Shown here: piece after piece, positions 50,592-53,068 of the stretch | How the letters are laid out: each line of letters opens with the position of its first letter | Numbering within the stretch: position 1 is the stretch's first letter | Assembly (NCBI GenBank): GCA_038998335.1 | Contig: JAVZHQ010000001.1 | Location: 160,001-224,000, forward strand | Source: Candidatus Aenigmatarchaeota archaeon | GTDB lineage: Archaea > Aenigmatarchaeota > Aenigmatarchaeia > CG10238-14 > SCSR01 | DNA length: 64,000 nucleotides | Reading direction: 5' to 3' | Notes under the pieces: generated by a model | The model's database searches: none | What the model was told of the DNA's origin: nothing | Seen by the model: the letters and a program-made list of their open reading frames with translations, nothing else | Program-made: the position numbers and the translations under genes

Positions 50592-51851
50592 ATGAAAGAG
50601 AAACCTACAGTAATAGCCCCTGTAAAAGGAAAAGGCACAAGACTTTATCCTCTTACTTTGGATGACTCTAAATCTTTAGTAGGAATAGCTAACCAGCCAA
50701 CTTTAGAAAGAATATTTGAAAACTTAGCTCTTTATGGTTGCAGAAATTATTGGATAATTGGGGAGTATGAGCTTTACTTTTACTTTAGGAGAGGTGAAAG
50801 CTTTTCAAAAAGACTTGACTTAAAACCTGAAGCTATTTTTAACTACTCTACTGAAGATGATTTTGGTAATGCTGACGGGACAAGAAGACTTTTAGAAAAA
50901 GAGGATATAGAAGGAAATGTGCTTATAATAGGAGGAGATAACTTAACTGACATAAACGTTGATCAAATGCTTAAGTTTCATGAGAATAACGATTCAGATT
51001 TTACTGTAGCACTGGCAGAAGTTAAAGATGTTACAAAGTATGGTATAGCTAAGCTAGACGGTAATAGAATTTGTGAGTTTTTAGAAAAACCTAAGCCCGA
51101 AGAAGCTCCTTCTAATCTAGGAAGTATGTTTTGTTATCTAGGCAAAGCAAAAGTTCTTAAAGAATTTCTAGAAAAGAATAAGGACCTTACAGATTTTGGT
51201 TCTCAAGTAATACCAAAAATGGTAAAGGAGTGTAGAGTTTATGGCTATGTTCACAAAGGTTATTGGAAGGATATAGGAAATCCAGAAACTTTACTCCAAG
51301 CTTCTATAGATGTTTTGAACGGTAAAGTTGGAAAAATTGGAGAAAGGATTCATCCTTCAAGCAAAAATAAAATAGGGAAAAATGTGGAAATGGATAATGT
51401 GCTTATAGGGGCAAATGTAAGAGTTGGTAATAACGTCAAGCTAAAAAATGTTTGTATAGAAGATAACTGTATAATAGAAGATGGAGCTGAGATAGAAGAT
51501 TCTGTGCTTTATTTTGCAGCAAGAGTTGGTGAGAAAACTAAAGTAAAGAAATCTATTGTTGGAAGGTTTGCTTACACAGGAAAAAGAAGCGAAATAGGAG
51601 GTTATAATATAGATAAAGTTTCTGTAGTAGGAAATAATGTAAAAATGGGTGATGAATGGATAATATGGGAAGGTGAGCTTTTAGCTACATATTCTCCGCA
51701 AAATATGAGGAAGATTAAAAAAGCAACTTTAAACAACCAAGACTTGTATAAAATTGTTAACGTGGATAATGACATTATATTCTTTGTTAACAGAAAAACT
51801 CTTTACGAAGATTATAAAGGAATGCCTCCTCCTGTTTTCAAAAGGGTTTAG
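50592..51851 (+). CDS. Sugar-1-phosphate nucleotidyltransferase with beta-helix C-terminus
   Basis: GKGTRLYPLT, GNAD, GGD, EKP, DFG, YWKDIG, hexapeptide repeats. Confidence 0.88.
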   Translation: MKEKPTVIAPVKGKGTRLYPLTLDDSKSLVGIANQPTLERIFENLALYGCRNYWIIGEYELYFYFRRGESFSKRLDLKPEAIFNYSTEDDFGNADGTRRLLEKEDIEGNVLIIGGDNLTDINVDQMLKFHENNDSDFTVALAEVKDVTKYGIAKLDGNRICEFLEKPKPEEAPSNLGSMFCYLGKAKVLKEFLEKNKDLTDFGSQVIPKMVKECRVYGYVHKGYWKDIGNPETLLQASIDVLNGKVGKIGERIHPSSKNKIGKNVEMDNVLIGANVRVGNNVKLKNVCIEDNCIIEDGAEIEDSVLYFAARVGEKTKVKKSIVGRFAYTGKRSEIGGYNIDKVSVVGNNVKMGDEWIIWEGELLATYSPQNMRKIKKATLNNQDLYKIVNVDNDIIFFVNRKTLYEDYKGMPPPVFKRV

Positions 51852-53068
51852 CTTAGTTTATACCTTAAGAAAGCTCCTATTCCTCCCAATTCTTTAAACT
51901 GAGCACCTTCGCTGCTTTCTGTCGAGATAAACTCAACTTTACTTCCTAAGTTTTTTGCTTTTTCACTTAAACTTTCAACTAATTCCTCTACGCTTTCGAC
52001 ATTCATAACCTGATTACATTTCTCACAGTATTGATTTTCAGCTTTATCTTTCGGCAAATCTTTTTCCTGTGTCAAATTACACTTATTGCATTTAAGTTTA
52101 ACATGAACAAAATCAAAACCTTCTGAAATCAGTAAAGTATCAACAGCTCCTGCTTCCAAAGCTTTTATAGTTTCCTTAAAACCGTAAGTAACATTTCCTC
52201 CCTTTTGTAGTTCAGAGAAAAATTTATTCATTATTTCCTTTTCCTTCATTATAGAAGCCTTTTCAAGCAAGTCTTCTGACCTGTTAACAAGTTCTCTTAG
52301 TCCATATTCGCCTGTATAGCTTGTATCTTTTATTCCCAAAATTTTTTTCTGAATTTCATGGTGTAAGTAATTTCCTTGGGCAAAAGTTTCTTTTGTCGGT
52401 CCTGGACCACCAATCAAAACTCCTTTCAACTCAGGCTCTTGCAAAAAAAAGTTTGAGGCAATTTCTCCTACTCTAGTAAAAAACTCATTCAAGGCGTCTT
52501 CTCTAATCCTATCATACCTACGTTGTGACATCCCACCTTTTACGCTCTTGGAAGGTACAGTAGATTCCAATTTTTTGAATTCTTCAACTAATTTGCCTTT
52601 AAGTAAGCCAATGTTAGCTTCGTTCGCGTCAAGAACTATTAAACCATAAACTTCCTTTTCTCTCAACATTTCTTTCAAAGGGTTAAGAACAAAAACTTGA
52701 TCGCAACGATAAATTTTTGTTGAAAGTTTTTCTGGAGGCTCTAAACTCCAAATTCTTACATCTGAAATTCCAGGGTCAGAAGAAACATTTCCACAAAAAA
52801 CCACCAAACCATTTTCAGGAGTTGTTCTAAAAAGTCTTAAGTGTTGAATTATTTTTTCTAAAGCACTCATCACGTTTTTTCTTACAGTTTTATCCTTTAC
52901 GTTTTGCGCTAAGCTATACTCTTCTCTTAACATGTTGACAACTTCTTGCAAGTTTGAACCAGAAGGAATATAAACGCTAACCAATTCCGTATGTCTACCT
53001 TTTATTTTTTCCAATTCTTTTACCATCTTCTTTAGTTTTAACAGTTTCTCTTCTTCCATTTTACTCAC
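51848..53068 (-). CDS. prf1: Peptide chain release factor aRF1 (variant GGMSQ)
   Basis: GRHTELVSVY, NVKD, YRCD, GPGPTK, GAVDTLL, LGGIGAFLRY. Confidence 0.94.
   Translation of the reverse strand: MSKMEEEKLLKLKKMVKELEKIKGRHTELVSVYIPSGSNLQEVVNMLREEYSLAQNVKDKTVRKNVMSALEKIIQHLRLFRTTPENGLVVFCGNVSSDPGISDVRIWSLEPPEKLSTKIYRCDQVFVLNPLKEMLREKEVYGLIVLDANEANIGLLKGKLVEEFKKLESTVPSKSVKGGMSQRRYDRIREDALNEFFTRVGEIASNFFLQEPELKGVLIGGPGPTKETFAQGNYLHHEIQKKILGIKDTSYTGEYGLRELVNRSEDLLEKASIMKEKEIMNKFFSELQKGGNVTYGFKETIKALEAGAVDTLLISEGFDFVHVKLKCNKCNLTQEKDLPKDKAENQYCEKCNQVMNVESVEELVESLSEKAKNLGSKVEFISTESSEGAQFKELGGIGAFLRYKLS

What the first reader, a model, noticed from the sequence alone, without database searches (positions are those of the whole stretch)
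52523..52537. aRF1 lacks the universal GGQ: reads GGMSQ
Seen: AAA GGT GGG ATG TCA CAA CGT AGG encodes KGGMSQRR in an otherwise complete three-domain aRF1, with NIKS read as NVKD and YxCxxxF intact. Gln to Met here needs at least two base changes. Known: GGQ is the catalytic, Gln-methylated motif of class I release factors; GGxSQ/GGSQ-type loops occur in Vms1-like and bacterial aeRF1-like families. Inference: a canonical terminator with a shifted or dispensable catalytic Gln, or a specialised rescue paralog.
Basis: partly seen in the sequence, partly recalled or inferred. Interest (0 to 1): 0.8.

Follow-up and report, generated by a model that had tools for sequence, protein, structure and literature searches.

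The report
Release factor without its universal glutamine
The only stop-codon release factor of this small archaeon has Gly-Gly-Met where textbook release factors have Gly-Gly-Gln, and many related species share such a change and also lack the enzyme that normally methylates that glutamine.

Summary
Window 52523-52537 (minus strand) encodes GGMSQ inside a complete three-domain aRF1 (TIGR03676, 506.6 bits against a cut-off of 234.7). It is the only aRF1 found in a 1.0 Mb genome rated 90% complete. That genome shows no bacterial RF domain, no second aeRF1-type catalytic domain and no sign of stop-codon reassignment.

The change is lineage-wide, not an error. I read the loop in 197 of 201 Aenigmatarchaeota species genomes. 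112 have GG[W/M/Y/F/A] (W 62, M 46) and 85 have GGQ. The Gln methyltransferase Mtq2 scores over its cut-off in 71 of the 85 GGQ genomes and in 1 of the 112 non-Q genomes; that one hit lacks the NPPY motif.

A second DPANN phylum repeats the pattern: 5 GGWSQ genomes with 0 of 5 holding Mtq2, against 12 GGQ relatives with 9 of 12 holding it.

Loss of the Gln goes with a Gln two residues later (GGxSQ), also in a test on independent tree pairs (median p 0.016).

My reading: this is a working terminator in which a bulky hydrophobic residue replaces methyl-Gln and the +2 Gln probably helps. No biochemistry supports this yet. I found no paper describing it.

The parts
51848..53068 (-). aRF1 gene (406-aa ORF from GTG; probably 403 aa from the ATG at 53059). 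It is the only class-I release factor found in the genome.
   Evidence: (TIGR03676 506.6 bits, cut-off 234.7)
52523..52537 (-). Catalytic loop GGMSQ (residues 178-182). Met180 sits where the universal Gln belongs, and Gln182 lies two residues later.
   Evidence: gapless alignment to GGQSA of 4af1_A
52664..53032 (-). Domain N (Pfam eRF1_1, residues 13-135), the stop-codon recognition domain
52892..52903 (-). NVKD (residues 56-59), a variant of the NIKS motif. N and K are kept.
   Evidence: NVKD also occurs in the genus and a few relatives; NVKS, NVKN and NIKD occur in other families.
52691..52711 (-). YRCDQVF (residues 120-126), matching the YxCxxxF motif
52262..52648 (-). Domain M (Pfam eRF1_2, residues 141-269), which carries the catalytic loop
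   Evidence: 137.8 bits
51854..52252 (-). Domain C (Pfam eRF1_3, residues 273-405), with a CxxC...CxxC insert

Best explanation
This gene is the organism's one working class-I release factor, an orthologue of aRF1. It recognises all three stop codons through an ordinary N domain. It releases the peptide with a catalytic loop in which the 'universal' Gln has been replaced by Met (Trp in most related families).

Shown: the replacement is fixed across more than half of the sampled Aenigmatarchaeota and in a clade of a second DPANN phylum. It is almost always a large hydrophobic residue (W, M, F, Y). It goes together with the absence of Mtq2, the enzyme that methylates that Gln, and with the presence of a Gln two residues further on (GGxSQ).

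Inferred: hydrolysis still depends on the two glycines and on the main-chain amide at position 3, which published bacterial work names as the catalytic group. The bulky side chain takes over the packing role that N5-methyl-Gln plays in the peptidyl-transferase centre, which made the methyltransferase dispensable in these reduced genomes. The +2 Gln probably helps to position water, but is not strictly required.
For: - It is the sole copy. PF03464 and TIGR03676 each find one aRF1 in G000. tblastn finds nothing else below E 0.03. There is no bacterial RF-1 domain and no other VLRF1-type domain.
- It is a full aRF1: three Pfam domains, the equivalog HMM at 506.6 bits, and PDB 4af1_A at E 5.7e-86 over residues 5-404.
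- All three stops are in use. Of 788 ORFs of 150 aa or more, 423 end in TAA, 206 in TGA and 159 in TAG, and they cover 87% of the genome under code 11.
- The change is conserved. Of the 114 homologues with a readable loop (of 121), none has GGQ: GGMSQ 102, GGMSA 8, GGMSS 2, GGFSQ 2.
- Across the phylum, 197 of 201 genomes were read: Q 85, W 62, M 46, Y 2, F 1, A 1.
- Mtq2 (TIGR00537) scores over its cut-off in 71 of 85 GGQ genomes and 1 of 112 non-Q genomes. Sub-cut-off hits occur in 4 GGQ and 8 non-Q genomes.
- I inspected 6 best hits from non-Q genomes and none has the NPPY motif. All 3 inspected from GGQ genomes of family f19 have it.
- Independent replicate in the order of G201 (another phylum): 5 GGWSQ genomes with Mtq2 in 0 of 5; 12 GGQ genomes with Mtq2 in 9 of 12.
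- The +2 Gln in Aenigmatarchaeota: present in 80 of 89 non-Q loops and 5 of 58 GGQ loops.
- The +2 Gln among 140 readable 50%-identity representatives: present in 20 of 24 non-Q and 22 of 116 GGQ. There are 10 independent pairs on supported branches; the +2 Gln goes the same way in 6.6 on average and the other way in 0, with median p 0.016.
- Literature, passages read: the Gln backbone amide catalyses hydrolysis (PMC6742477); the Gln side chain has a packing role that methylation stabilises (PMC5799190); Mtq2 methylates the aRF1 GGQ in Haloferax volcanii (PMC6144793).
Against: - No activity, expression or protein evidence exists. Two RNA runs gave 0 laid reads, which is no test.
- The genome is rated 90.4% complete, so a missing second factor cannot be strictly excluded. 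It would, however, have to be missing from 112 genomes.
- 10 of 85 GGQ genomes also show no Mtq2 hit, so absence calls in these draft genomes are noisy.
- Within Aenigmatarchaeota the Q/non-Q state needs only 5 changes on the aRF1 tree, 2 of them on supported branches. The large counts therefore reflect few events, and the paired test for Mtq2 cannot reach significance.
- The +2 Gln is missing in 9 of 89 non-Q loops (WSA, WSS, MSA). It is also common in ordinary GGQ factors: GGQSQ in 45 of 79 in a broad archaeal sample.
- Titles in reference lists state that GGQ is essential in vivo in bacteria and that GGQ mutations abolish eRF1 activity (Mora 2003 and Frolova 1999; titles only).
Confidence: 0.7

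Rival explanations
1. Shifted catalytic glutamine. Gln182 (GGxSQ) is the true functional replacement of the GGQ Gln and is essential. The Met or Trp is only a spacer, and the loop works like the GGxSQ loop of Vms1-like release factors.
For: The +2 Gln is strongly enriched wherever position 3 is not Q: 80 of 89 against 5 of 58, and 20 of 24 against 22 of 116 with a phylogenetically paired test at median p 0.016. The same double change arose in a second phylum (GGQS[SAK] to GGWSQ). aVLRF-1 and acVLRF-1 carry GGxSQ (PMC6514570). Pfam acVLRF1 gives a partial hit on this stretch (35.6 bits).
Against: 9 of 89 non-Q loops in species genomes and 10 of 114 metagenome homologues have A or S at +2 and are otherwise intact. 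The residue at position 3 is not random: it is W, M, F or Y in 111 of 112, which points to a role of its own. GGQSQ is common in canonical aRF1, so Q at +2 is not by itself a new catalytic device.
Confidence: 0.3
2. The aRF1 only recognises stop codons and has lost hydrolysis. Another protein, or the host cell of this presumed symbiont, cleaves the peptidyl-tRNA, or the tRNA is cut as Vms1 does.
For: The Gln is reported as universal and important (PMC6144793, PMC5799190). DPANN archaea have reduced genomes.
Against: The genome shows no other aeRF1-type catalytic domain, no bacterial RF-1 domain and no VLRF1. The pelota-like ORF lacks its central domain altogether. The two glycines and the rest of the loop stay invariant in all 197 genomes read, which is not expected for a dead site.
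Confidence: 0.05
3. A specialised rescue or hibernation paralog, with the true terminator elsewhere.
For: Some archaeal aRF1-like proteins without NIKS and GGQ are treated as Balon-like factors (PMC13324472). Two representatives with GGE and no NIKS (P0248, P0260) may be of that kind.
Against: This protein keeps N-x-K and YxCxxxF, scores as the aRF1 equivalog, and is the only copy in G000. In the phylum scan every genome with a readable loop showed one aRF1; the extra matches I inspected were halves of intein-split genes or pelota-like ORFs.
Confidence: 0.02
4. A sequencing or assembly error, or a decaying pseudogene.
For: None found.
Against: The frame is open at 406 aa. Identity within the genus is 86-91% with the loop unchanged. 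46 species genomes have GGM, and contigs of runs X2 and X3 agree at the codon.
Confidence: 0.01

Closest known systems
Canonical archaeal aRF1 / eukaryotic eRF1 (for example PDB 4af1 chain A; eRF1 1dt9)
   Same: Three domains, full-length alignment (E 5.7e-86, residues 5-404), an NIKS-type loop, YxCxxxF, the two loop glycines, Ser after position 3, and the R-[FY]-x-R helix start. It is the sole class-I factor of the genome.
   Different: Position 3 of GGQ is Met (Trp, Phe or Tyr in relatives). The Gln methyltransferase Mtq2, said to occur in all archaea (PMC6144793), was not found.
Vms1-like release factors aVLRF-1 / acVLRF-1 (Burroughs and Aravind 2019, PMC6514570)
   Same: The catalytic loop reads GGxSQ. 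Pfam acVLRF1 partly matches residues 146-221 (35.6 bits).
   Different: Those are rescue factors without a stop-codon-reading N domain. This protein is an aRF1 orthologue by full-length score (eRF1_2 137.8 bits against acVLRF1 35.6 bits), so the likeness in the loop is convergent.
Laboratory Gln substitutions in bacterial RF1/RF2 and in human eRF1
   Same: They bear on the same question, namely what the Gln side chain does. Published views I read: the backbone amide is catalytic (PMC6742477) and the side chain has a packing role (PMC5799190). From recall, not seen here: Shaw and Green 2007 and Seit-Nebi 2001 reported partial activity of some Gln mutants.
   Different: Those are engineered mutants, reported as harmful in vivo. 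Here the substitution is natural, fixed, recurrent and accompanied by absence of the modifying enzyme.
aRF1 inteins inserted between GGQ and S in DPANN archaea
   Same: The same loop is involved. Relatives of this gene carry inteins exactly at GG[Q/M/W/F]|S, including a near relative in run X3.
   Different: The window's own gene has no intein. The finding here concerns the residue before the insertion site.

Membership tests
aRF1/eRF1 class-I release factor | Three-domain architecture (eRF1_1, eRF1_2, eRF1_3) and a full-length equivalog score | tested here: met
   Pfam gives 70, 137.8 and 101.9 bits. TIGR03676 gives 506.6 bits against a cut-off of 234.7.
aRF1/eRF1 class-I release factor | NIKS-type stop-codon recognition loop | tested here: inconclusive
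   The loop reads NVKD: N and K are kept, I is V and S is D. NVKS, NVKN and NIKD variants occur in other archaeal aRF1. All three stops are used in the genome. Function was not assayed.
aRF1/eRF1 class-I release factor | YxCxxxF motif | tested here: met
   YRCDQVF at residues 120-126.
aRF1/eRF1 class-I release factor | GGQ catalytic tripeptide | tested here: not met
   GGM at residues 178-180, aligned without gaps to GGQ of 4af1_A. It is therefore an aRF1 orthologue by descent that fails the motif-based definition, and I file it as a variant, not as a canonical member.
aRF1/eRF1 class-I release factor | Peptidyl-tRNA hydrolysis at stop codons | not testable with these tools
   Needs a release assay.
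Mtq2 (N5-glutamine methyltransferase of aRF1/eRF1) in the same genome | TIGR00537 over its cut-off, with the NPPY motif | tested here: not met
   The best hit in G000 is 27.1 bits against a cut-off of 87. The model is over its cut-off in the 4 archaeal control genomes. Trm112 is present (32.2 bits against 22).
Vms1-like release factor (VLRF1) families | GGxSQ catalytic loop | tested here: met
   GGMSQ; the motif is as stated in PMC6514570.
Vms1-like release factor (VLRF1) families | VLRF1 domain as the best-scoring model, and no stop-codon-reading N domain | tested here: not met
   acVLRF1 gives 35.6 bits on part of the domain against 137.8 bits for eRF1_2. The eRF1_1 N domain is present. bVLRF1 gives no hit in the genome.

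The most novel reading that the evidence does not exclude
The 'universally conserved' catalytic GGQ of class-I release factors has been rewritten repeatedly in nature. At least about ten times among archaeal aRF1 lineages, and at clade scale in two DPANN phyla, it became GG[W/M/F]SQ. Wherever I could test it, the dedicated Gln methyltransferase Mtq2 was not found. This would mean that a constitutively hydrophobic residue, helped by a neighbouring Gln, can replace the methylated Gln, and that the main job of methyl-Gln is packing in the peptidyl-transferase centre and not chemistry.
Probability: 0.55. Interest if true: 0.85.

Novelty: new variant of a known kind. Interest (0 to 1): 0.8.

Why it matters
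GGQ is the textbook example of a motif shared by unrelated release factors in all three domains of life. Its Gln methylation is described as universal, and Mtq2 as present in all archaea (PMC6144793). Here, over a hundred species appear to terminate translation without that Gln and without the methylase.

This is a natural experiment on a long-debated question: what the Gln side chain and its methyl group actually do. It gives concrete variants to test (GGMSQ, GGWSQ, GGWSA).

It also has a practical side. Annotation rules or surveys that use 'lacks GGQ' to call a protein a non-terminating paralog (as in PMC13324472) would misclassify these factors.

Tried and rejected
- **Genetic-code change.** Long ORFs under code 11 cover 87% of the genome and end in all three stops, so I saw no sign of reassignment. 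I ran no rigorous test on conserved positions.
- **Suppressor tRNA.** ARAGORN's 'tRNA-Stop(tta)' has a poor anticodon stem and becomes an intron-bearing tRNA-Ser when introns are allowed. I rejected it.
- **Expression.** No RNA holder was listed. Two metatranscriptome runs from one study gave 0 laid reads with about 3% of each run read. This is no test.
- **Mtq2 paired test within Aenigmatarchaeota.** There are only 2 independent pairs on supported branches, so the test cannot reach significance. I rely instead on the replicate in a second phylum.
- **Census of GGW-type factors across all genomes.** The search for related loci chose the NIKS stretch as its pattern and returned a general archaeal sample of 80 loci, 1 of them GGWSQ.
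- **Taxon names for the other non-Q representatives.** The listing of cluster members gave none, so their phyla are unknown.
- **Pattern search in the phylum of G201.** That phylum holds only 31 genomes here, and the pattern found the 5 already known.
- **Mutagenesis papers.** Seit-Nebi 2001 and Shaw and Green 2007 are not held. What I say about them is from recall.
- **Other convergent substitutions.** I looked for further changes outside the loop that separate Q from non-Q factors. Only G173S (VPGK to VPSK) recurs in part.
- **Not run.** I made no structure prediction or complex prediction, because a free-state model would not show the loop in the ribosome.
- **Earlier notes of this scan.** Nothing on GGM or GGW.

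Full report
**The observation.** On the minus strand, window 52523-52537 reads GGT GGG ATG TCA CAA, which is GGMSQ, preceded by AAA (K) and followed by CGT AGG (RR). These are residues 178-182 of a 406-aa ORF at 51848-53068, which starts with GTG. The identical database protein is 403 aa, so the real start is probably the ATG three codons in. NVKD lies at residues 56-59 and YRCDQVF at 120-126.

The protein has all three Pfam eRF1 domains. It scores 506.6 bits on the NCBIfam aRF1 equivalog, whose cut-off is 234.7. It aligns over residues 5-404 to the solved archaeal aRF1 4af1_A at E 5.7e-86. In that alignment the loop 'kggmsqrrydr' lies without gaps on 'KGGQSAQRFAR', so Met180 occupies exactly the Gln position.

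**Is it the terminator?** The window lies in a genome of 1,009,365 bases in 9 contigs, rated 90.4% complete. The following searches bear on this:
- PF03464 and TIGR03676 each find one aRF1, and tblastn finds nothing else below E 0.03.
- There is no bacterial RF-1 domain and no further VLRF1-type domain.
- The only other relative is a 224-aa pelota-like frame that matches the pelota model at positions 1-130 and 249-351. It therefore lacks the central domain.
- ORFs of 150 aa or more cover 87% of the genome under code 11. They end in TAA 423 times, TGA 206 times and TAG 159 times.
- An ARAGORN 'tRNA-Stop' is a mis-modelled intron-bearing tRNA.

I therefore see no code change and no second release factor. 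The 'rescue paralog' reading has nothing to stand on.

**Not an error, but a lineage trait.** The 120 best hits in the 5.8-billion-protein collection are named, where they carry a name, Aenigmatarchaeota with one exception, a hit labelled Bathyarchaeota. Of 121 sequences (the query included), 114 have a loop my pattern could read, and none has GGQ: GGMSQ 102, GGMSA 8, GGMSS 2, GGFSQ 2. Four of the other seven carry an intein right after GGM.

Contigs of runs X2 and X3 come from two other studies and are about 94-95% identical to the window. They cover 52528-53068 with 30 listed differences, none of them at 52529-52537.

**The phylum.** I searched 201 species genomes of the phylum, which form one class and 32 family codes. 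I read the loop in 197 of them. The four unread genomes are G038 and G111, where only a pelota-like ORF was found, and G059 and G150, which gave fragments only.

The result is Q 85, W 62, M 46, Y 2, F 1 and A 1. On an aRF1 tree with the loop columns masked, the phylum splits into two halves with support 98:
- a GGQ half of 81 genomes, with one stray W;
- a non-Q half of 115 genomes, with five GGQ genomes of family f19 nested inside it.

At least 5 state changes are needed, but only 2 lie on supported branches. The big counts therefore stand for few events.

**Absence of the methyltransferase.** TIGR00537 (Mtq2) is over its cut-off in the 4 archaeal control genomes. In G000 its best hit is 27.1 bits against a cut-off of 87. 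Trm112 is present. Across the phylum:

| aRF1 loop | Genomes | Mtq2 over cut-off | Sub-cut-off hit | No hit |
|---|---|---|---|---|
| GGQ | 85 | 71 | 4 | 10 |
| non-Q | 112 | 1 | 8 | 103 |

I then inspected ten of these hits for the NPPY signature, which PMC6144793 names as the Mtq2 signature:
- The single over-cut-off hit in a non-Q genome (G032, 87.5 bits) lacks it.
- The five sub-cut-off hits from non-Q genomes that I read also lack it. One has DPPF, one NPPF and three have none.
- G080, G110 and G034, all GGQ genomes of f19, have NPPY.
- G151, a GGQ genome with a 74-bit hit, does not.
- Three weak hits in non-Q genomes (62, 57 and 53 bits) were not inspected.

The five f19 genomes that kept GGQ kept Mtq2, or an NPPY-bearing near-cut-off hit. 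This is a within-family contrast.

**An independent replicate.** A broad archaeal sample of 80 aRF1 loci gave 79 GGQ (GGQSQ 45, GGQSA 24, GGQSS 10) and one GGWSQ. The GGWSQ locus lies in a genome labelled Micrarchaeota.

In the order around that genome, 18 genomes were searched and 17 loops were read. Five have GGWSQ, and none of the five has an Mtq2 hit at E 1e-12 or better. Twelve have GGQS[SAK], and nine of these have Mtq2 at 119-161 bits. A specific DNA pattern for the loop found the same five among the 31 genomes of that phylum, with no control hits.

**Recurrence and the +2 glutamine.** In Aenigmatarchaeota, the residue two places after position 3 is Q in 80 of 89 non-Q loops (A 8, S 1) but in only 5 of 58 GGQ loops (A 32, S 21).

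Of 150 representatives clustered at 50% identity, 140 were readable: 116 GGQ and 24 non-Q (W 12, M 5, F 3, E 2, A 1, S 1). The +2 residue is Q in 20 of the 24 non-Q and in 22 of the 116 GGQ. On their tree there are 10 independent Q/non-Q pairs on supported branches. The +2 Gln changes in the same direction in 6.6 of them on average, never in the other direction, and not at all in 3.4. The median sign-test p is 0.016, with a range of 0.008-0.125.

At least 12-13 changes of state are needed. The two GGE sequences lack NIKS and may be paralogs. GGQ to GG[W/F/M]SQ therefore looks like a recurrent, convergent rewrite. Outside the loop I found only one partly convergent change, VPGK to VPSK, seven residues upstream.

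**How it probably works.**
- *Shown:* the gene is single-copy, the factor is complete apart from this residue, the glycines are kept in every genome read, position 3 is a bulky hydrophobic residue in 111 of 112 non-Q genomes, Mtq2 is absent from the same genomes, and a Gln is enriched at +2.
- *From papers (passages read):* the backbone amide at the Gln position is held to catalyse hydrolysis (PMC6742477). [quoted passage not shown] In Haloferax volcanii, Mtq2 methylates the aRF1 Gln and its deletion slows growth (PMC6144793).
- *Inferred:* Trp, Met, Phe or Tyr supplies the packing without any modification. The backbone does the chemistry. The +2 Gln helps with water or rRNA contacts, as in the GGxSQ loops of Vms1-like factors (PMC6514570). 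It is not indispensable, because GGWSA and GGMSA factors persist.
- *From recall only:* some engineered Gln mutants of RF1 and eRF1 keep partial activity. Those papers are not held here.

**What speaks against this reading.** There is no assay, no protein evidence and no RNA evidence. These are draft genomes. 10 of the 85 GGQ genomes also lack an Mtq2 hit. There are few independent events for the Mtq2 link: one large one, perhaps a few within f19, and one in the second phylum. GGQSQ is common in normal factors. The titles of older papers call GGQ essential.

**Novelty.** I ran these full-text searches:
- Aenigmarchaeota + GGQ
- GGQ + DPANN
- Mtq2 + archaea + GGQ
- Aenigmatarchaeota + release factor
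- aRF1, GGQ, lacks, Micrarchaeota

None returned a paper that describes a release factor lacking the Gln in these archaea. The hits I opened mention the terms for other reasons. The searchable library lacks most subscription journals, and supplements were closed. Earlier notes of this scan record the aRF1 inteins but nothing on GGM or GGW.

I rate this a new variant of a known kind. It is an aRF1 orthologue whose defining catalytic tripeptide is not met.

Noticed in passing
relatives: for example L114 (G168, same genus), L335/L330 (G143), L183-L220; run X3 laid on window 52519-52528: Many relatives carry an intein exactly between GG[Q/M/W/F] and the following Ser (GGx|C...HN|S). This holds whatever the residue at position 3. 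A strain about 95% identical in run X3 has 1235 extra letters at this spot. The window's own gene has none.
   Followed up: partly
own genome G000:C1:648655-649329 (outside the window): The pelota-like ORF is only about 219-224 aa. It matches the pelota model at positions 1-130 and 249-351, so the whole central domain is missing. I did not check whether this is general in the family.
   Followed up: partly
G038 and G111 (one genus of family code f20; 91% and 89% complete): No aRF1 was found with either the protein or the TIGR03676 model; only a 339-aa pelota-like ORF turned up. Both genomes have Mtq2. The gene may be unassembled or very divergent.
   Followed up: partly
own genome G000:C1:241490-241577 and C2:71223-71316 (outside the window): ARAGORN reports a tRNA with an 8-base anticodon loop ('ttag') and a 94-base 'tRNA-Stop(tta)'. 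The second becomes an intron-bearing tRNA-Ser when introns are allowed. Only 31 tRNAs were found in all.
   Followed up: partly
window 52892-52903 and 52691-52711 (-): The genus and a few relatives combine NVKD with YRCDQ, where most of the phylum has NIKS with YWCDQ. Other families have NVKS or NVKN. I did not examine whether this affects stop-codon reading.
   Followed up: no
window 52550-52552 (-), residue 173: VPGK upstream of the loop is VPSK in the window's family and in all 5 GGWSQ genomes of the second phylum, but VPGK in nearly all GGQ factors. This may be a second convergent change.
   Followed up: no
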